Assembly: GCA_948437895.1 (NCBI GenBank)
Contig: CAOJKK010000001.1
Coordinates: 27,163 to 91,162, forward strand
Reading direction: 5' to 3'
From: an uncultured Clostridium sp.
GTDB taxonomy: Bacteria; Bacillota; Clostridia; TANB77; CAG-508
Length of the DNA: 64,000 bases
Shown: positions 2,129 through 59,032 of the stretch, one piece after another
Numbering within the stretch: the stretch's first letter is position 1
How the letters are laid out: the number at the start of each line of letters is the position of its first letter
The notes under the pieces: generated by a model
Databases searched by the model: none
What the model was told of the DNA's origin: nothing
The model's input: the letters and a program-made list of their open reading frames with translations, nothing else
Made by a program: the position numbers and the translations under genes

Positions 2129-3794
2129 TTTTATCTTTAGGTGTAATAGTTATTTCATCATTTCCTGGTATTTCTTCCCATTTTTCTTCGCCTGTAATTG
2201 GATCTACAACATATAGATTTTTTGTTCCAAATTTCAATTTTACTTCTGGTATTGTTATTAAATCTTTATAGTATTTTTCTAGATCATTTTTAAATTTTTT
2301 TACGTTCTTATCTTTTACAGTCTCATTACTATCTGTTATAGTTTCGCTACCAGGTACTTCTGAATAATCATCAGGCATATCTCTTACTGTATCTTTATAT
2401 TCTGGCTCTTGTTCACCACTTAATATTGCATAATCTTTTGTATAATGTGCTAACCATGTATCTGCTTCTGTAACTTCAAAAGAATATGAGTGACTTGTAT
2501 ACTTTCTATCTATTGTAACTTTTTTGTCATTAACTTCATAATTTGTACATGGTTGTCCTTTATCATCTTGTTTATCTCCCAATAAATAATTTTCATTAGA
2601 TTCTATTTCTACTACTGATGCAATTTTATAATCTATTCTTTTTTCATCTTTGCTATATACTGTATAAGTTCTTTCTTCAATAGTATGCGTATATGTCTCT
2701 TCTTCTTGGATATTTATTACAATTTTGCCTCCCATAACATAATCTACTAGTTCCATACAAAAATCCGGTTCTTGAGTTACTACTAATAATTGTACTAGAA
2801 ATTCAAAAGGCATTGTATATTTTCTTATATATTCACCATATGCAATTTCTTCTGTTGTAATAATATATACTTCACCTGTTGTCTTTTCTTTCTCTGACTC
2901 TGGAAGATTCTCTGGGTATTCTCCTTTTACTTCTATTTCTTCCATATCCCATTTCGCAATAACAAGATTTCCTTTATCATTTAATGTAAAATAATTTCTA
3001 ACTTTTTCATCATTAGCAACTACTAATTTGTTAAAATCTGCTGATTGCATATATTCAAGAGTAGTAGAAGTATTACCATTGGTATTAGTTCTCTGAACTA
3101 ATATTACGCCTGATACCTCATTATTATTTTTTTGTGAAAAGTCACTTAATTGCATAGGTGTATATATTCCATTTTTAAATTTTTCTCCATTTCTCCTCAA
3201 ATCTAGGAACTGCGTTGCTGCTTCCGCTCTAATAAATGCTGGAAAACAATGTAGTTGTTCTGCAGTATAATAATCTAAGTTTGCTCCATTATCCATTAGT
3301 GAACCAAGAACTGCAAGTTCAAAATCGCTAAATTCAGATGCTGATCTTGATGTTTCTGCTTCTAATCTCTTTTTTATATTTTCTAAATTTTTAGGATCAT
3401 TATTATATGCAATCTCATATCCATCTTTTTTACTATTAGGTTGAACTACAATTTTATTAATAGTGTTTCCATTATCATCTGTAGTTGTGGTGGAAGTATT
3501 TCCTGTATAAGAAATTTCCATCGCTTGTTGTTTAGAATCATTGACACCATTTTCTTGCCATTTATCTACAACATACACTGCTCCACCAATAAAAATGGTT
3601 AATACAATTACTACTGCCAGAATAGCCAAAAGTGTTACTACTACATGGGGATTTGCTGCCAAGAATTGTATTATCTTCTGTTTTGCCTTCTTTTTCCCCT
3701 CTTCTTTTAGTTTCTCTTTTCCTTTATTCATCTGTTGCTTTGTAAAACTTTGGCTTTGATTTCTCTCTTCTTGTTGTTCGTCCATACTTCTCAC
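2094..3794 (-). CDS. membrane-anchored (single N-proximal TM) protein with large extracytoplasmic domain, T4SS-cluster associated, function unknown
   Basis: 566 aa ORF; charged N-terminus then TM segment VVVTLLAILAVVIVLTIFIGGAVYVV; no recognisable catalytic motif. Confidence 0.5.
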   Translation of the reverse strand: MRSMDEQQEERNQSQSFTKQQMNKGKEKLKEEGKKKAKQKIIQFLAANPHVVVTLLAILAVVIVLTIFIGGAVYVVDKWQENGVNDSKQQAMEISYTGNTSTTTTDDNGNTINKIVVQPNSKKDGYEIAYNNDPKNLENIKKRLEAETSRSASEFSDFELAVLGSLMDNGANLDYYTAEQLHCFPAFIRAEAATQFLDLRRNGEKFKNGIYTPMQLSDFSQKNNNEVSGVILVQRTNTNGNTSTTLEYMQSADFNKLVVANDEKVRNYFTLNDKGNLVIAKWDMEEIEVKGEYPENLPESEKEKTTGEVYIITTEEIAYGEYIRKYTMPFEFLVQLLVVTQEPDFCMELVDYVMGGKIVINIQEEETYTHTIEERTYTVYSKDEKRIDYKIASVVEIESNENYLLGDKQDDKGQPCTNYEVNDKKVTIDRKYTSHSYSFEVTEADTWLAHYTKDYAILSGEQEPEYKDTVRDMPDDYSEVPGSETITDSNETVKDKNVKKFKNDLEKYYKDLITIPEVKLKFGTKNLYVVDPITGEEKWEEIPGNDEITITPKDKIASTSLRKYYI

Positions 3795-38921: not shown

Positions 38922-40254
38922 TTATTCTCTATATTTTTCTATATTAACAAATTTAGTATAACTTCCAAGCCACAATAATTCTACTGTTCCTGTTGATCCA
39001 CCTCTATGTTTTGCCATAATTACTTCTGCTATATTTTTCTTTTCTGAATCTGGGTTATAGTAATCATCTCTATATAAAAACATTACTATATCAGCATCTT
39101 GTTCTATCGCTCCAGATTCACGAAGGTCTGAAAGCATTGGTCTATGATCTGTTCTTTGTTCTGCAGCCCTTGATAATTGTGATAATGCAATTACTGGAAC
39201 ATCTAATTCTTTTGCTAATATTTTAAGTGATCTACTTATTTCAGAAATTTCTTGTTCACGACTAGAATTTCTTTTTCCTGTTCCTTGTATTAATTGTAAA
39301 TAATCTATTACTACAAGTCCTATATTTTTTTCCATCTTTAGTTTTCTACATTTTGCCCTTATTTCTGTAATGCTTATTCCCGGTGTATCATCAATGTATA
39401 TAGGTGCTTCTGAAAGAGGTCCTAAAGCTGTTGCAAGTTTTACCCAATCATCTTCTTCAATTTTTCCTGTTCTTATTTTATTGCTATCAACCATAGCCTC
39501 ACTGCAAAGCATTCTGTTTACAAGCTGACTCTTTGACATTTCAAGGTTAAATATTACAACTGGAACCTTTGCTTGAAGTGCTGCGTTTGTTGCTATATTT
39601 AATGCAAATGCAGATTTACCCATAGCTGGTCTTGCAGCAACTAATACTAAATCAGAATTATGAAGCCCGAGCTGTTTTATAGTCTAAATCTGCAAATCCT
39701 GTTGGAATACCTGTTATTGGCTCTTTTTGATTATATAGTTTTTCTATCTCTGCAAAGCTCTCTACCAAAATATCTTTTAATGCAGCATATCCTTTTTGAT
39801 TCTTCCCTTGTGAAATCTCGAATACCTTTTTTTCAGCTTGATCAAGAATGGCATCTAGCTCTTCCGTCTGATCATATCCTAAATCTATAAGTTCATTAGA
39901 AGCTTTTATTAATCTTCTTAAGACTGATTTCTCTTCAACTATTTTTATATATCTGTCTACATTTGCAGTTGTTGGAACTTTATCTGGTAATACTGCCAAA
40001 TATTCTAATCCTCCAACAGCTTCAAGCTTTCCTAAAGATGTTAATTCTGATTTAACTGTAATTATATCTATAGGTTCTGCTCTATTATATAAGTTTAATA
40101 TTGCTTCATATATTGTTTTATTATCTTGTCTATAGAAATCATCTGGTTTTAATACTTCAACGCTATCAATTACTGCATCCTTATCTGTAAGCATACTTCC
40201 TATTACTGCTTGTTCTGCATCAATATCATGTGGTGGTATTTTTCCTAACTCCAT
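38922..40254 (-). pseudogene. dnaB: replicative DNA helicase DnaB interrupted by a single-base frameshift near 39640 (probably a sequence error)
   Basis: ORF 39658..40254 is the DnaB N-terminal domain, ORF 38922..39623 the RecA-like C-terminal domain; the shifted frame across the gap reads [27 protein letters not shown], the DnaB Walker A region. Confidence 0.85.
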
Positions 40255-40267
40255 TTTATTCTCCTTT

Positions 40268-40352
40268 ATTTGTAAGGGGACGCATCTTTCCCCTTGGTCT
40301 CTCTATAGGGATAAGATACATCCCCATCCTTAAACCCCTAGTGATGTCAATA
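40268..40352 (-). repeat. ~85-bp structured intergenic element, family C, copy 1 (rplI-dnaB spacer)
   Basis: Near-identical to 55165..55256; contains hairpins AAGGGGA-CGCATCTT-TCCCCTT and TAAGGAT-N13-ATCCTTA plus a GTGATGTCA tail. Confidence 0.65.
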
Positions 40353-40361
40353 TTCAAAATC

Positions 40362-54607: not shown

Positions 54608-55150
54608 TTATTTAGACATTACCTCTTTTAAATCTTTCCAAAAATCTATTTTCTTAGTATCATCTCTAAGTAGTGCTGCTGGATGGAATGTTGGCAAATA
54701 CTTTATTCCATCTCTTTCAAACCATTTCCCTCTACTTGCTGTTATTCCATATTCTTTCCCTAGTATGTTTTTTAACGCTACACTACCTAATAGTATAATT
54801 ATTTCTGGATTTACTAATTTTATTTGGGCTTCTAAATATTCTCTGCAACAATCTGCTTCATCATACTCTGGATTTCTATTATTAGGTGGTCTGCATTTTA
54901 CTATATTTGCTATATATACTTCTTCTCTTTTTATTCCTATCCCTTGAAATGCTTTGTCCATCAACTGACCAGCTTTCCCTACAAAAGGTATTCCTTGTAT
55001 ATCTTCATCTGCTCCTGGTCCCTCGCCTATAAGCATTATTCTTGCATTCTTATTCCCTGTACCAATTACTACATTGTGTCTATTATTACACAATTTGCAT
55101 TTAGTACAATTTTTACATTCATTTTCTAACTCTTCCCATGTTTGATACAT
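54608..55150 (-). CDS. uracil-DNA glycosylase, family 4
   Basis: GEGPGADEDIQGIPFVGKAGQLM family-4 UDG motif and N-terminal Cys cluster. Confidence 0.8.
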   Translation of the reverse strand: MYQTWEELENECKNCTKCKLCNNRHNVVIGTGNKNARIMLIGEGPGADEDIQGIPFVGKAGQLMDKAFQGIGIKREEVYIANIVKCRPPNNRNPEYDEADCCREYLEAQIKLVNPEIIILLGSVALKNILGKEYGITASRGKWFERDGIKYLPTFHPAALLRDDTKKIDFWKDLKEVMSK

Positions 55151-55164
55151 ATTTTACTCCTTTT

Positions 55165-55256
55165 CTTGTAAGGGGACGCATCTTTCCCCTTGGTCTTTCT
55201 CTAAGGATAAGATACATCCCCATCCTTATCATCTGGTGATGTCAGTTTTCATATTT
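55165..55256 (-). repeat. ~90-bp structured intergenic element, family C, copy 2
   Basis: CTTGTAAGGGGACGCATCTTTCCCCTTGGTCT...GGATAAGATACATCCCCATCCTTATCATCTGGTGATGTCAGTTTTC, about 90% identical to copy 1. Confidence 0.65.
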
Positions 55257-55262
55257 TATTTA

Positions 55263-56678
55263 CTATAATAAACACATTAATGCTGTGTTTCTTCCCGCTT
55301 CTATTCCGTCTTTTCTATATGAATGGATTATATCACTATTACAAAAACTACAAATTTTACTATCAACAATGTTTTCTTCTAATATTCCTTGTTTTAATAG
55401 TAGGTTTTTATTTATTTCTACAGTATTTATGAAGTAACTATTAGTTTCTTTGTTGTATTTAATAATCTCATCTATATTATTCATAGATTTAAACTCATTA
55501 TAGAATAGGTCTCTTACATCTTTTTGAACCTCAAAATGACACTCTCTAATTGTTGGACCAATTATGCATATTATATCTTCTGTATTACAGCTATATCTCT
55601 TTTTCATAAATTCTATTGCTTTTTCTGCTATTCTCTTTACAGTTCCTTGCCATCCTGAATGAATATTTCCAATAATTCTTTTATTCTTATCAAATAAATA
55701 TATCGGCGTACAATCTGCGAATGTTAAAGATAGTATTTTATTCTTTTTGTCAGTTACCAGTCCATCTACATCTTCTAATTCTTTAGGAAATACTCCAATC
55801 TCTTCCGCTACTTCTTTCACATTGTTTGTATGTGTTTGATATGGTCTTACTATATTCTTGCTATCTAGTTTTAATAATTCACATGCTAATTTGTAATTAC
55901 TATCAAATTTTTCTTTTCCCTCTTTGTATGTGTCATTACTACCAAAATCAAGTGGCTTTAATGTAAATGCATGCGATAAAACATCACTGTATTTTAGTAA
56001 TCTTTTGAACTGCAAAATTCTTGAGTTTTCATCTTGAATTATAACTACTTCATCATTTATTATTTTACTTCCTATTATTTCTTTTATATCTTCTACTATT
56101 TTTTCTAAACTGTATTTATTATTATTTACAATTACAATATTAGAATTTTTAATATAGAAATCATTTTCAGGTTGAGCACTTATTCTATCTGTAGCACAGT
56201 CTTCATCTATATTATCCCTTAGACAAATTCTTTCCATTTTTATATCTTCATCTGCTATCACTGATATTACTATATCACACATCTCATTTAATTTACTTTC
56301 AATTAAAAGAGGTGCGTCAATTATAACTGTTTTATCTCTATTTAAACTTACTCTTTTACTTATCTCTTCTACTACATATTTGAATGTAAGTAAATTTAAC
56401 ATTTCTCTTTTTTCTTTGTCTGCAAATATTATACTTGCAAGTTTTGATTTATCTATTTCTCCGTTTTCTAATAAAATGCCTTTTCCAAACTCTTTTACTA
56501 TTTCTTTAAAATAAACTTCACCTGGCATAGACATCTCTTTTACTACTTTATCTGCATCTATAACACATGTATCAGGGTCTGTCCCTTTTGCGACATTTTG
56601 TCGCATTGGGACTGTCCCCAATGCACTGCTTATTGATGTTTTACCGCTTCCAGAGTTCCCAGTTATACCTATTATCAT
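55263..56678 (-). CDS. coaE: fused dephospho-CoA kinase / YfiH(PgeF)-family purine nucleoside phosphorylase-like protein, with a palindromic repeat inserted in frame after the P-loop
   Basis: N-terminus MIIGITGNSGSGKTS (CoaE P-loop), ...VIDADK; C-terminal half has PgeF motifs (PYQTHTNNV, LTFADCTPIYLFD, GNIHSGWQG, CSFC). Confidence 0.75.
   Translation of the reverse strand: MIIGITGNSGSGKTSISSALGTVPMRQNVAKGTDPDTCVIDADKVVKEMSMPGEVYFKEIVKEFGKGILLENGEIDKSKLASIIFADKEKREMLNLLTFKYVVEEISKRVSLNRDKTVIIDAPLLIESKLNEMCDIVISVIADEDIKMERICLRDNIDEDCATDRISAQPENDFYIKNSNIVIVNNNKYSLEKIVEDIKEIIGSKIINDEVVIIQDENSRILQFKRLLKYSDVLSHAFTLKPLDFGSNDTYKEGKEKFDSNYKLACELLKLDSKNIVRPYQTHTNNVKEVAEEIGVFPKELEDVDGLVTDKKNKILSLTFADCTPIYLFDKNKRIIGNIHSGWQGTVKRIAEKAIEFMKKRYSCNTEDIICIIGPTIRECHFEVQKDVRDLFYNEFKSMNNIDEIIKYNKETNSYFINTVEINKNLLLKQGILEENIVDSKICSFCNSDIIHSYRKDGIEAGRNTALMCLL
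56575..56622. repeat. intragenic copy of the GTCCC/GGGAC - TGCGACA/TGTCGCA palindromic element, inserted in frame in coaE
   Basis: GGGTCTGTCCCTTTTGCGACATTTTGTCGCATTGGGACTGTCCCCA; nested inverted repeats; translates to SALGTVPMRQNVAKGTDPD between the P-loop and the VIDADK motif. Confidence 0.7.
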
Positions 56679-56707
56679 AGTTACCTTCCTTTAAAATTTA
56701 AGTTTTT

Positions 56708-56765
56708 TATGACTAGATAATATCATAAAAGCAGATAATTTTCAATTAATTATCTGCTCTATATA
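56708..56765 (-). terminator. ~57-bp direct repeat copy 1 containing an 11-bp-stem terminator hairpin (AGCAGATAATT-TTCAATT-AATTATCTGCT)
   Basis: Identical apart from 2 mismatches to 58965..59020; downstream of the GNAT gene. Confidence 0.65.
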
Positions 56766-58945: not shown

Positions 58946-58964
58946 CCTTTTAATTTATGTATTG

Positions 58965-59020
58965 TATGACCAGATAATATCATAAGAGCAGATAATTTTC
59001 AATTAATTATCTGCTCTATA
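58965..59020 (-). terminator. ~57-bp direct repeat copy 2 with the same terminator hairpin
   Basis: TATGACCAGATAATATCATAAGAGCAGATAATTTTCAATTAATTATCTGCTCTATA. Confidence 0.65.
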
Positions 59021-59032
59021 TTAAGTAGTTAA

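What the first reader, a model, noticed from the sequence alone, without database searches (positions are those of the whole stretch)
55165..55256. Family C: ~90-bp conserved structured element in three minus-strand intergenic spacers (candidate small RNA or processing signal)
Copies lie at 40268..40352 (rplI-dnaB), 55165..55256 (coaE/pgeF-udg) and 62252..62345 (addB-coaD). All are in the same orientation relative to transcription and sit between co-directional genes. They contain two hairpins (AAGGGGA...TCCCCTT; TAAGGAT...ATCCTTA) and a conserved GGTGATGTCAGTTTTC tail.

The GGGGAC/GTCCCC core links this family to families A and B. The element also produces a false 26-codon N-terminal extension on the coaD ORF.
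Basis: seen in the sequence. Interest (0 to 1): 0.6.

Follow-up and report, generated by a model that had tools for sequence, protein, structure and literature searches.

The report
Mobile RNA hairpin before ribosome-binding sites
A roughly 88-base repeated element, absent from RNA databases, sits just upstream of the ribosome-binding site of many housekeeping genes in a group of uncultured gut and rumen Clostridia, comes and goes between strains, and folds on the mRNA strand into one conserved hairpin that probably marks or protects the start of each coding unit in an operon.

Summary
There are exactly three copies in the window, all on the minus strand: 40268-40357, 55165-55250 and 62255-62340. 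A covariance model scores them 71-100 bits.

The family has about 35 copies in at least 8 AT-rich uncultured Clostridia genomes. It has no Rfam, phage or plasmid match.

Comparative data support one long-range 12-bp helix, GGGGAYRUAUCU / AGAURYGUCCCC, with compensatory changes and U·G pairs that make it specific to the gene-sense strand. It is flanked by a near-invariant unpaired 5' box UGACAUCAC, a loop GAC and a 3' NUAC.

Every copy is sense to, and a few bases upstream of, a Shine-Dalgarno sequence. Sites include many ribosomal-protein operon spacers, fusA-tuf, ftsA-ftsZ, secA, recN, and pheS/thrS downstream of their T-boxes.

Two of the three window sites are empty in other strains that carry identical flanking proteins. 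No terminal inverted repeats or target duplications were found.

Orthologous copies are conserved as well as, or better than, the adjacent ribosomal-protein coding sequence.

My best reading is a mobile, co-transcribed "cistron-leader" hairpin acting on mRNA processing, stability or RBS insulation. That function is inferred, not shown. It is a new variant of interspersed-repeat RNA elements. Interest is moderately high.

The parts
55165..55250 (-). Copy 2 (the finding), 86 nt, short form. Runs from GAAAAC-UGACAUCAC to CCCC-UUAC-AAG. Lies between the coaE/pgeF-like fusion gene and udg.
   Evidence: R1 scores it 100.2 bits. Its boundaries come from the empty allele L033, whose spacer is 21 nt against 112 nt here. 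RNA MFE is -29.7 kcal/mol, z -4.8; the antisense strand gives only -22.7, z -1.9.
55236..55244 (-). Copy 2: near-invariant unpaired 5' box UGACAUCAC.
   Evidence: It is exact in 34 of 35 family members. That includes 5 of the 6 copies found without requiring an exact box; the sixth reads UGACAUUAC.
55210..55221 (-). Copy 2: 5' arm of helix P1, GGGGAUGUAUCU.
   Evidence: Pairs with 55172-55183. Across the family P1 is 97% paired, and 5 pairs show changes on both sides.
55184..55209 (-). Copy 2: 26-nt P1 loop, UAUCCUUAGAGAAAGACCAAGGGGAA, with the conserved C-rich start, a conserved G and GAC.
   Evidence: Near-invariant columns in A3. In this copy an inner UCCUU/AGGGG helix is predicted, but it is not conserved family-wide.
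55172..55183 (-). Copy 2: 3' arm of helix P1, AGAUGCGUCCCC.
   Evidence: The ATG CGT CCC CTT ACA within and after it gives spurious 'MRPLT' ORF extensions in related loci.
55165..55171 (-). Copy 2: conserved 3' tail UUAC-AAG. The host Shine-Dalgarno AAAAGGAG (55157-55164) follows directly, and the udg start codon is at 55148-55150.
   Evidence: The SD is also present in the empty allele, so it is not part of the element.
40268..40357 (-). Copy 1, about 88-90 nt, short form, between rplI and dnaB. Box is at 40341-40349. P1 arms are 40314-40325 and 40276-40287. UUAC is at 40272-40275.
   Evidence: R1 scores it 86.8 bits. The spacer is filled in the window, L029 and L032 (107 nt). It is empty (19 nt) in L028, L030 and L031, which carry an identical RplI protein. 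L029/L032 carry a C-to-T change in the 3' arm that keeps pairing as G·U.
62255..62340 (-). Copy 3, about 86 nt, the most divergent copy, between the addB-like gene and coaD. Box is at 62326-62334. P1 arms are 62302-62313 (GGGGACAUUGCU) and 62264-62275 (AGGUGUGUCCCC). AUAC is at 62260-62263.
   Evidence: R1 scores it 70.9 bits. It carries the compensated P1 variant, U·G to C-G and G-C to A-U. Only filled alleles were seen: L040-L042.

Best explanation
Family C is a short (about 86-90 nt; about 110 nt in a 'long form'), non-coding, interspersed repeat. It is gained and lost at individual sites in a clade of AT-rich uncultured Clostridia.

It is always co-transcribed with the gene downstream of it and acts at the RNA level. 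Its transcript has an A-rich single-stranded lead-in with the near-invariant box UGACAUCAC. Then comes one stable 12-15-bp hairpin (P1, a GGGGA/UCCCC clamp at its base). Then a short UUAC(A) tail ends 10-17 nt before the host's own Shine-Dalgarno core.

Proposed mechanism (inferred). The element works as a 'cistron leader' or punctuation module in polycistronic mRNAs and 5' UTRs. An endonuclease or RNA-binding factor recognises the single-stranded box. The P1 hairpin then stops 5'-to-3' decay and shields the ribosome-binding site from upstream sequence context. Each downstream cistron would thereby get a defined, stable, translatable 5' end.

Shown: family membership, the P1 helix with covariation, strand specificity, strict position and orientation, the presence/absence polymorphism, and sequence constraint.

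Inferred: processing, stabilisation, any trans factor, and the way copies spread.
For: 1. It is real and multi-genome.
- There are 3 window copies at 71-100 bits.
- About 32 further copies occur in low-GC MAGs and metagenome contigs.

2. One helix is conserved.
- P1 is 97.1% paired over 32 sequences. 5 of its 12 pairs have changes on both sides. None of 500 shuffles reached the covariation score, and slid controls pair only 38-59%.

3. It is strand-specific.
- Two conserved U·G pairs would be A·C on the other strand.
- Sense folds give z -4.8, -2.8 and -2.1. Antisense folds give z -1.9, -1.4 and -0.15.
- A strain SNP turns G-C into G·U, which keeps the pair.

4. Position is strict.
- All 35 copies are sense to the downstream gene.
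- In 26 copies the model ends 3-23 nt before the start codon.
- Where a T-box or, in L025, an L10 leader is present, the element lies between it and the SD.
- In L007/L010 it starts just after a TTGACA-17-TACAAT promoter match that I read by eye.

5. Contexts are verified by Pfam: L6, L18, S5, L24, S17, S14, S7, EF-Tu, L1, L10, L7/L12, FtsZ, SpoIIGA, SecA, PheS, ThrS and others.

6. Sites gain or lose the element.
- Empty and filled alleles with identical flanking proteins exist at rplI-dnaB and coaE-udg.
- Occupancy of ribosomal-protein spacers differs between species.
- L006 and L025 place the element on opposite sides of the L10 leader.

7. It is under constraint.
- Orthologous copies are 80-98% identical, against 83-98% for the adjacent downstream coding sequence. 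At S8-L6 the figures are 97.9% against 83-86%.

8. The setting fits.
- The other ribosomal-protein spacers in the same genomes carry unrelated, strongly folding hairpin inserts. Orthologous S14-S8 hairpins of 27-30 bp differ in sequence between species, with z -5 to -6.
- This suggests that in this lineage an intercistronic hairpin as such is tolerated or selected.
Against: - There are no transcript, 5'-end or cleavage data, so processing and stabilisation are unproven.
- A simple protective hairpin does not explain the near-invariant unpaired UGACAUCAC, the loop GAC or the 3' UAC. These point to a specific partner that I could not identify.
- P1 (12-16 bp) is short for RNase III.
- The box lies 12-17 nt from the hairpin foot. 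That is far for a 5' stabiliser unless trimming occurs.
- Two sites are dispensable in some strains, so any function is not essential at every site.
- In the window, orientation relative to transcription is confounded with orientation relative to the probable leading strand. A DNA-level (single-strand) explanation of the strand bias is therefore not excluded.
- The box, GGGGA and GUCCCC were part of the search pattern, so their invariance is partly by construction. The six copies found without the exact pattern largely keep them.
Confidence: 0.45

Rival explanations
1. A protein-binding (or ligand- or ribosome-binding) translational operator. The box UGACAUCAC, the loop GAC, the 3' UAC and the P1 clamp together form the binding site for one trans-acting factor. 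That factor would co-regulate a growth-related regulon (ribosomal proteins, EF-Tu, FtsZ, SecA, aminoacyl-tRNA synthetases, DnaB) at the level of translation initiation. The regulon would be spread by a mobile element.
For: - Unpaired nucleotides are conserved at least as strongly as the helix.
- Orthologous copies are as conserved as coding sequence over their whole length.
- The gene set is dominated by translation and cell-growth functions.
- The position is fixed 10-17 nt upstream of the SD core.
- In the long form, an upstream SD-like box can pair with the P1 3' arm as an alternative partner. Cognate duplexes average -10.3 kcal/mol against -7.9 for non-cognate ones, z -2 to -4. The local structure could therefore switch.
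Against: - No candidate factor was identified.
- The SD is not sequestered in the predicted folds.
- Targets also include udg, coaD, recN and a DUF84 gene.
- Sites are dispensable between strains.
- There is no match to any riboswitch or leader family.
- The alternative pairing is absent from the three window copies.
Confidence: 0.2
2. A purely selfish DNA element moved as single-stranded DNA, for example by an HUH/Y1 (IS200/IS605- or REP/RAYT-like) or another TIR-less, duplication-less system. On this reading the hairpin is a DNA recognition structure, and any effect on the mRNA is incidental.
For: - Presence/absence alleles exist.
- There are no terminal inverted repeats and no target-site duplication; the permutation test gives p = 0.16. 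Both absences are typical of IS200/IS605 and IS110-type elements (general knowledge).
- Truncated and tandem copies occur in L015.
- The structure is strand-specific, and the orientation coincides with the probable leading strand.
- Other repeat families share the same spacers.
- Assemblies break inside the element.
Against: - Conserved U·G pairs and a G-C to G·U SNP fit RNA better than DNA.
- 35 of 35 copies are gene-sense and RBS-adjacent, at about 26 independent sites. Classical interspersed repeats are instead enriched between convergent genes (PMC3049150).
- Orthologous copies persist across genera with coding-like conservation, inside the most strongly selected operons.
- No transposase was seen next to any copy. 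None was searched for systematically.
Confidence: 0.2
3. A new class of self-cleaving ribozyme, or a dedicated RNase P-like or other endonuclease substrate, that cuts operon transcripts into monocistronic units.
For: - A compact size of about 75 nt, a helix with covariation, and clusters of near-invariant unpaired nucleotides are the usual signature of small ribozymes.
- It is multi-copy and intergenic.
- Its placement between cistrons resembles engineered ribozyme insulators.
Against: - Only one helix is supported. The candidate pseudoknot (UCACU/AGUGA) occurs in about half the copies and shows no covariation.
- No hit to hammerhead, hairpin, twister, pistol, hatchet or HDV models, even at E up to 10.
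- A resemblance to the hairpin-ribozyme substrate, recalled from memory, fails at the essential G+1 position.
- ARAGORN sees nothing tRNA-like.
Confidence: 0.07
4. An independently transcribed small RNA gene.
For: It is a conserved structured sequence in intergenic DNA.
Against: - No sense-strand promoter-like or terminator-like site lies in or beside the copies.
- P1 is not followed by a U-tract.
- The spacers are fully occupied between an upstream stop codon (2-25 nt away) and the downstream SD.
Confidence: 0.03

Closest known systems
Small interspersed repeats that are co-transcribed and fold as RNA: pneumococcal BOX/RUP/SPRITE, Bacillus cereus bcr1-bcr18, enterobacterial ERIC, Neisseria Correia elements
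   Same: - Size of 80-150 nt, many copies per genome, intergenic, and variable between strains.
- Stable predicted RNA structure.
- Often part of UTRs or operon spacers.
- Some affect mRNA half-life or are RNase targets. PMC3446304 links bcr3 to longer half-lives and reports bcr10/bcr18 with conserved structure in 5' UTRs. PMC3049150 and PMC2229807 review ERIC/RNase E and Correia/RNase III.
   Different: - No terminal inverted repeats or target duplication.
- Strictly one orientation, always a few bases 5' of a Shine-Dalgarno. BOX/RUP/SPRITE are enriched between convergent genes (PMC3049150).
- Concentrated inside ribosomal-protein operons.
- Retained at orthologous sites across genera with coding-like conservation.
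REP/BIME elements and IS200/IS605-derived palindrome elements (RAYT or TnpA-Y1 mobilised)
   Same: - Short GC-clamped hairpin in an otherwise AT-rich spacer.
- No TIR or TSD.
- Strand-specific structure.
- Known to act as mRNA stability determinants inside operons (general knowledge, for example malE-malF).
   Different: - REPs are 20-40 nt near-perfect palindromes. They lie mostly 3' of genes and occur in both orientations.
- This element is about 88 nt with a 26-30-nt loop, long conserved unpaired parts and U·G pairs, and sits 5' of genes.
- No RAYT/TnpA link was tested.
Intercistronic processing elements: phage T7 early-mRNA RNase III sites, the plastid intercistronic expression element (IEE, PMC2230500), and mitochondrial tRNA punctuation
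   Same: A repeated, recognisable RNA signal between cistrons of a polycistronic transcript. In those systems it yields stable, translatable monocistronic units. The placement between nearly consecutive ribosomal-protein genes looks alike.
   Different: - Cleavage is not shown here.
- P1 is shorter than canonical RNase III substrates.
- There is no similarity to tRNA.
- The element is mobile and dispensable at some sites.
5' stabilisers of Firmicute mRNAs (5' stem-loops as in the aprE or ermC leaders; STAB-SD of cryIIIA)
   Same: - A stable hairpin, and in the long form an upstream SD-like box, placed 5' of the real RBS.
- This is the geometry known to block 5'-to-3' decay by RNase J1 (general knowledge).
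   Different: - Those are single-gene features without a conserved family sequence.
- This is a dispersed family with a near-invariant extra motif (UGACAUCAC).

Membership tests
Any Rfam 15 family (riboswitches, leaders, ribozymes, sRNAs) | Score at or above the family's gathering threshold | tested here: not met
   There were no matches in the window. In 22 related loci only unrelated families hit: T-box, L10 leader, OLE, tRNA, rRNA and skipping-rope. With E up to 10 on 55100-55320, only chance-level hits appeared. The best was Plastid-psbJ-3 at 22 bits against a threshold of 61.7.
MITE (miniature inverted-repeat transposable element) | Terminal inverted repeats | tested here: not met
   The ends GAAAACUGAC... 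and ...CCCCUUACAAG are not inverted repeats. The only inverted repeat is the internal P1.
MITE | Target-site duplication flanking the insert | tested here: not met
   Neither empty/filled pair shows a clean duplication. Cognate left and right flanks share no more sequence than non-cognate ones: mean 4.6 nt against 4.4 nt, permutation p = 0.16.
MITE / interspersed mobile repeat in general | Multi-copy, non-coding, with presence/absence polymorphism at otherwise identical loci | tested here: met
   There are 3 copies in 64 kb and 2-5 per sampled MAG. Empty alleles exist at 2 of 3 window sites. Occupancy of ribosomal-protein spacers differs between species.
REP/BIME (RAYT-associated) | Short (20-40 nt) near-perfect palindrome, often in inverted pairs, with a RAYT gene in the genome | tested here: inconclusive
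   The architecture does not fit: a 12-bp stem with a 26-30-nt loop plus about 35 nt of conserved unpaired flank. The presence of a RAYT was not examined.
Riboswitch / gene-specific cis-regulatory leader | Association with one functional gene class, and an expression platform (terminator or SD-sequestering helix) | tested here: not met
   Downstream genes are heterogeneous: ribosomal proteins, tuf, ftsZ, secA, recN, udg, coaD, dnaB, por. There is no U-tract terminator. The SD is unpaired in the predicted folds.
Intrinsic terminator | GC-rich hairpin followed directly by a U-run on the transcribed strand | tested here: not met
   P1 is followed by UUACAAAU... and the SD. The scan finds terminator-like sites only on the antisense strand of copy 2.
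Known small self-cleaving ribozymes (hammerhead, hairpin, twister, twister-sister, pistol, hatchet, HDV-like) | Match to the family's covariance model or catalytic core | tested here: not met
   No such family is listed even at E up to 10. CUGACAU differs from the hammerhead CUGANGA core at G8/A9. UGACA-U lacks the hairpin ribozyme's essential G+1. Both motif comparisons were made by eye against cores recalled from memory.
RNase III intercistronic processing site (T7 R1.1-type) | About two helical turns (about 20 bp or more) of dsRNA; cleavage by RNase III | tested here: inconclusive
   P1 is 12 bp, or 13-16 bp with copy-specific extensions. Neighbouring non-family-C spacers do carry 27-30-bp hairpins. 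Cleavage cannot be tested here.
tRNA-like punctuation element (RNase P/Z substrate) | tRNA-like fold or acceptor/T-arm minihelix with a 3' NCCA-type tail | tested here: not met
   ARAGORN finds nothing in the window. The 3' tail is NUAC, not CCA. P1 length varies from 12 to 15 bp.

The most novel reading that the evidence does not exclude
The element is the recognition signal of a lineage-specific mRNA 'punctuation' system. A dedicated endonuclease, or the RNA itself acting as a new self-cleaving ribozyme, would cut at or near the invariant UGACAUCAC box. Ribosomal-protein and other housekeeping operons would thereby be converted into hairpin-capped monocistronic mRNAs. The signal would be spread by a mobile element and complemented by other hairpin families in the remaining spacers. 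This would be a bacterial analogue of mitochondrial tRNA punctuation or plastid intercistronic processing.
Probability: 0.15. Interest if true: 0.85.

Novelty: new variant of a known kind. Interest (0 to 1): 0.6.

Why it matters
Ribosomal-protein operons are among the most compact and conserved transcription units in bacteria, and their genes are normally separated by a few bases and translationally coupled. In this clade of gut and rumen Clostridia most of these spacers instead hold 90-180-nt structured inserts. Family C is the best-defined of them.

- It has a covarying helix.
- It has near-invariant unpaired motifs.
- It has a strict position before the ribosome-binding site.
- It is conserved like coding sequence.
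- It is nevertheless polymorphic between strains.

If it acts on RNA, it would be a natural counterpart of the synthetic 'insulator' and tunable-intergenic-region parts used to balance expression within operons. It would also be an example of a mobile element wiring a growth-related set of genes to a common post-transcriptional signal.

The natural filled and empty alleles (rplI-dnaB, coaE-udg) offer a ready-made experiment.

It also has practical value for annotation. The element creates false N-terminal extensions ('MRPLT...', and the 26-codon coaD extension) and breaks metagenome assemblies.

Tried and rejected
It pairs in 52% of cells, equal to the controls. Rejected as a family structure.
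- Inner helix P1b (YCC/GGR). Only two pairs are common and the helix is 51% paired overall. Not established.
- Extension of P1 by GUA/UAC across a U·U mismatch. 11 of 32 sequences are unpaired at the middle pair. Weak.
- Pseudoknot between the 5' box flank (UCACU + UUCAC) and the loop (AGUGA + GUGGA). It is 74% paired, the 5' strand is invariant so there is no covariation, and the pairing is absent in the three window copies. Left open.
- All-against-all column-pair scan for further helices. Nothing consistent beyond P1.
- Upstream SD-like box pairing with the P1 3' arm. It is real in about 20 long-form copies, mostly in ribosomal-protein operons, and partly covaries. It is absent from the window copies. 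I report it as suggestive only.
- Conserved mini-ORF (MKTDITR*). An in-frame AUG is present in only about 8 of 34 copies, by eye. Rejected.
- Internal sigma-70 promoter (the TTGACA in copy 1). No -10 element lies at a usable spacing (and by eye). Rejected.
- Target-site duplication of GAAAA. It looks striking in copies 2 and 3, but is not significant across the family.
- K-turn, loop E, CsrA (GGA), TRAP, MazF (UACAU) and hammerhead/hairpin-ribozyme core motifs were compared by eye against consensus sequences recalled from memory. None fits consistently.
- Complementarity of the box to the 16S rRNA 3' region. The box has the same sense as AUCAC(C) of the 16S tail, not the complement, and no convincing pairing was found (from memory, not tested against this organism's rRNA).
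- Searches of viral contigs, phage records and plasmid records gave no copies.
- A literature search for the sequence motif returned only unrelated primer hits. Searches on intercistronic structured or repeat elements in ribosomal-protein operons found no description of this family.
- Homology with families A/B. The model R1 does not detect them.
Full report
**1. What is in the window.**

On the minus strand, the three spacers rplI-dnaB, coaE/pgeF-udg and addB-like-coaD each contain a related stretch of about 86-90 nt. Copies 1 and 2 are about 90% identical over 81 nt. Copy 3 is more divergent.

A covariance model built later from the wider family (R1) scores the copies 86.8, 100.2 and 70.9 bits. 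With filters off it finds nothing else in the 64 kb. The next sense-strand hit is at E = 0.16, and the intermediate hits are the antisense images of copies 1 and 2.

Rfam has no match at gathering thresholds in the window. Only noise appears at E up to 10 around copy 2. ARAGORN finds no tRNA or tmRNA.

- Ribosomal_L9 and DnaB.
- A CoaE + Cu-oxidase_4 (PgeF/YfiH-type) fusion and UDG.
- A PD-(D/E)XK nuclease and a cytidylyltransferase.

The 26-codon extension on coaD is a GTG ORF that runs through the element. The SD-preceded ATG is at 62237.

**2. The family outside the window.**

I scanned one genome per species with TGACATCAC-N(8-18)-TGGGGA-N(36-42)-GTCCCC. This returned 19 stretches. Four are chance hits in high-GC DNA. 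The other fifteen come from low-GC (27-33%) uncultured 'Clostridia bacterium' or 'Clostridium sp.' MAGs of gut and rumen origin, with 2-4 hits per MAG. Two of those contigs are binned as Bacilli and Muribaculaceae.

A metagenome scan added 7 contigs. A relaxed regular expression and the covariance model found further copies that had not been required to match the exact pattern. The total is about 35 copies. Viral contigs, phage records and plasmid records hold none.

Because retrieval required the box, GGGGA and GTCCCC, their invariance is partly by construction. Of the six copies found without the exact pattern, five have an exact UGACAUCAC and one has UGACAUUAC. Two vary in GUCCCC, reading GUCACC and GUCCCU.

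**3. Structure.**

RNAalifold on 23 and then 32 sequences gives a single helix, P1. GGGGAYRUAUCU pairs with AGAURYGUCCCC and closes a loop of 26-30 nt.

Counted on the 32-sequence alignment:
- P1 is 97.1% paired.
- Five of its twelve pairs show changes on both sides. For example, G-C becomes A-U in 11 sequences, and U-A becomes G-C or C-G in 8.
- None of 500 column shuffles reaches the covariation score.
- Sliding the partner by 1-3 columns drops pairing to 38-59%.

Two positions are predominantly U·G (19 and 29 of 32 sequences). They would be A·C on the other strand. Accordingly the sense strand of the three window copies folds at z = -4.8, -2.8 and -2.1, and the antisense strand at z = -1.9, -1.4 and -0.15.

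They are alternative pairings available in copies 1 and 2 because several G-rich and C-rich segments are present.

I also tested three further helices. None is established.
- An inner helix: 51% paired.
- A GUA/UAC extension of P1: weak.
- A pseudoknot between the box flank and the loop: 74% paired, no covariation, absent from the window copies.

An all-pairs column scan found no other consistent helix.

The supported anatomy therefore runs as follows:
- an A-rich lead-in (RAAAAY);
- the box UGACAUCAC;
- 11-17 variable nucleotides;
- the P1 5' arm;
- a loop with a C-rich start, a conserved G and GAC;
- the P1 3' arm;
- N-UAC-A.

**4. Position and context.**

All 35 copies are in the sense orientation of the gene that follows. 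In 26 of them the model ends 3-23 nt before an SD-preceded start codon. The base of P1 lies 10-17 nt from the SD core, which I counted by hand from the flanks. The upstream stop codon is 2-26 nt from the model start in most intercistronic cases.

Pfam confirms these downstream genes: L6, L18, S5, L24, S17, S14, S7, EF-Tu, L1, L10, L7/L12, FtsZ, SpoIIGA, SecA, PheS, ThrS, an FtsQ-type protein, a ferredoxin-type PFOR subunit and a DUF84 NTPase. It also confirms the upstream partners S2, MurA-like and PFOR gamma.

Where another leader exists, the arrangement is as follows:
- Downstream of the T-box and directly before pheS or the thrS operon in L008, L013 and L024.
- Downstream of the L10 leader in L025.
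- Upstream of the L10 leader in L006, which implies separate insertions in the same spacer.

In L007 and L010 the element begins just after a perfect TTGACA-17-TACAAT promoter match that I read by eye, so there it is a 5'-UTR element. No sense-strand promoter-like or terminator-like site lies in or next to the window copies.

**5. Gain and loss.**

I looked up contigs that encode exactly the window's RplI. In three assemblies rplI and dnaB are 19 nt apart. In two others, as in the window, they are 107 nt apart. The alignment shows the 88-nt difference is the element. The SD (AAAGGAG) is present in the empty allele.

Likewise one assembly with an identical Udg has a 21-nt coaE-udg spacer against 112 nt in the window. 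There the last four codons of the upstream gene also differ, which is locally raised divergence next to the indel. Several short contigs end inside the element, as expected for a repeat.

Neither junction shows terminal inverted repeats or a clean duplication. A permutation test of left and right flank sharing across the family is not significant (p = 0.16). A truncated second copy follows a full one in L015.

Occupancy of the spc-operon spacers differs between four related species. The element is therefore gained and lost, by a mechanism I could not identify.

**6. Constraint.**

For orthologous pairs in different MAGs the element is 80-98% identical. The adjacent downstream coding sequence is 83-98% identical, and upstream sequence, where it is coding, 85-91%. 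At S8-L6 the element and the 40 nt before it are 98% identical, against 83-86% for rpsH and rplF.

The fusA-tuf copies in L016 and L026 differ by the compensated P1 variant. A strain SNP in copy 1 converts G-C to G·U.

This argues for selection on the sequence and on P1. Concerted evolution among copies cannot be fully excluded.

**7. Long form and neighbours.**

About 20 copies, mostly in ribosomal-protein operons, carry an additional SD-like box: GGAAGCAU, GGAGAUAAACUU or GGUGGUACA. It lies 6-10 nt upstream of the A-rich lead-in.

The box resembles the P1 5' arm and can pair with the P1 3' arm at -8 to -14 kcal/mol, z -2 to -4. The cognate arm is the best partner in 6 of 10 representatives. 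In L002 the same outer clamp encloses an unrelated GC-rich interior. The three window copies lack this box. I treat the alternative pairing as suggestive only.

The other spacers of the same operons hold unrelated, strongly folding inserts, none of which is in Rfam:
- 27-30-bp purine-repeat hairpins at the orthologous S14-S8 site in three species, with different sequences (z -4.8 to -6.2).
- Rod-like AAATGAAAA...TTTTGATTT elements.

Family C is thus one of several hairpin families occupying intercistronic spacers in this lineage.

**8. Interpretation.**

The facts fit an interspersed, mobile, non-coding element whose selected form is an RNA hairpin on the mRNA. The hairpin is placed as the first feature of the downstream cistron's leader. 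The most economical mechanism is an intercistronic or 5'-UTR processing-and-stability module, for three reasons:
- It gives a single-stranded, sequence-specific entry site followed by a hairpin.
- Such a hairpin blocks 5'-to-3' decay, the known behaviour of 5' stem-loops and of STAB-SD in Firmicutes. This rests on established knowledge, not on a test here.
- It would insulate the ribosome-binding site from upstream context.

The near-invariant unpaired motifs imply a specific partner, either a nuclease or a binding protein, or less likely a tertiary fold with catalytic activity. I could not identify one. This keeps the operator and ribozyme rivals alive.

A purely DNA-level selfish element is disfavoured by four observations: the U·G pairs, the gene-sense and RBS-adjacent placement at about 26 independent sites, the contrast with classical repeats that accumulate between convergent genes (PMC3049150), and the coding-like conservation. 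In the window, however, gene direction and the likely leading strand coincide, so it is not excluded.

**9. Comparison with known systems and novelty.**

The closest kinds are these:
- Co-transcribed interspersed repeats: BOX/RUP/SPRITE (PMC3049150), bcr elements (PMC3446304), and ERIC and Correia (reviewed in PMC2229807 and PMC3184786).
- REP elements.
- Intercistronic processing signals, namely T7 RNase III sites and the plastid IEE (PMC2230500).

Family C meets the general definition of a mobile interspersed repeat. It fails the MITE criteria of TIR and TSD, does not fit REP architecture, and matches no Rfam family.

Three features set it apart: strict orientation and RBS-proximal placement, enrichment inside ribosomal-protein operons, and deep conservation combined with strain-level polymorphism. 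I rate it a new variant of a known kind, with interest 0.6. The function is unproven, but the pattern is unusual and directly testable with natural filled and empty alleles.

Noticed in passing
window 38922-40254 (minus strand), frameshift near 39660-39666: dnaB is split into a 198-aa N-terminal ORF and a 233-aa C-terminal ORF. One extra base is responsible (...ACA GCT C GGG CTT CAT..., giving a rare CGG codon in frame 0). The downstream frame reads the expected [19 protein letters not shown]. The same 198-aa N-terminal ORF is called in five independent assemblies, and the 233-aa C-terminal ORF in the four whose contigs reach it. The split is therefore real. It may be a programmed +1 frameshift or a split gene.
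   Followed up: partly
L017, L002, L001 (spc-operon loci), e.g. L017:4095-4240(-), L002:3368-3515(+), L001:1012-1150(+), L001:5040-5125(+): Most spacers of the ribosomal-protein operons in related MAGs hold 100-180-nt hairpin-forming inserts from families unrelated to family C. They include 27-30-bp purine-repeat hairpins at the orthologous S14-S8 site, with a different sequence in each species (z -4.8 to -6.2). None is in Rfam.
   Followed up: partly
L002:1390-1535 (+), L29-S17 spacer: The outer clamp is the same as in long-form family C (GGUAGGAAGCAU ... AUGCAUCCCC), but it encloses a different GC-rich interior of about 110 nt (MFE -51.6 kcal/mol, z -3.4). This may be a composite or cargo-carrying relative.
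   Followed up: no
Similar GGGAC/GTCCC elements occur in ribosomal-protein spacers of related MAGs. The family-C model does not detect them.
   Followed up: partly
window 56695-56764 and 58952-59021: Two 70-nt copies, 93% identical, contain the hairpin AGCAGATAATTTTCAATTAATTATCTGCT. They also carry promoter-like TTGAAA-17-TATTAT matches with an upstream TG on the minus strand.
   Followed up: no
L019:2072-2667 (+), then 2881-2965 and 3025-3558: An OLE RNA (RF01071, 358 bits) is present in a roe-deer rumen Clostridia MAG. A degenerate family-C copy (34.5 bits, lacking the box) follows it, and then a 178-aa hydrophobic ORF with no Pfam hit, which may be OapA-like.
   Followed up: no
L015:5762-5830 (+): Directly after a full copy lies a fragment of a P1 3' arm (UGUGUCCCCUUAC). 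It is followed by a second UGACAUCACUAGGUAGUAAUGGGAGGG whose GGGAGGG serves as the SD of spoIIGA. This is a truncated or rearranged tandem copy.
   Followed up: partly
L001:1667-2239, L002:5192-5725, L012:4810-5343 and other downstream ORFs: The P1 3' arm reads ATG CGT CCC CTT ACA. ORF finders therefore prepend a spurious 'MRPLTN...' extension to the downstream gene. This is the same artefact as the coaD extension in the window.
   Followed up: yes
L024:2536-3136 (-): The DUF84 NTPase gene between the two family-C copies appears as two overlapping ORFs of 102 and 130 aa. This suggests another frameshift or an assembly error.
   Followed up: no
window 41018-43197 (+); L027-L030: Next to rplI lies a three-gene cluster that varies in its neighbours between strains. 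It encodes a PAPS-reductase/DUF3440 protein (436 aa), a 123-aa ORF and a ParB_N protein. The first and last look IbrA/IbrB-like.
   Followed up: no
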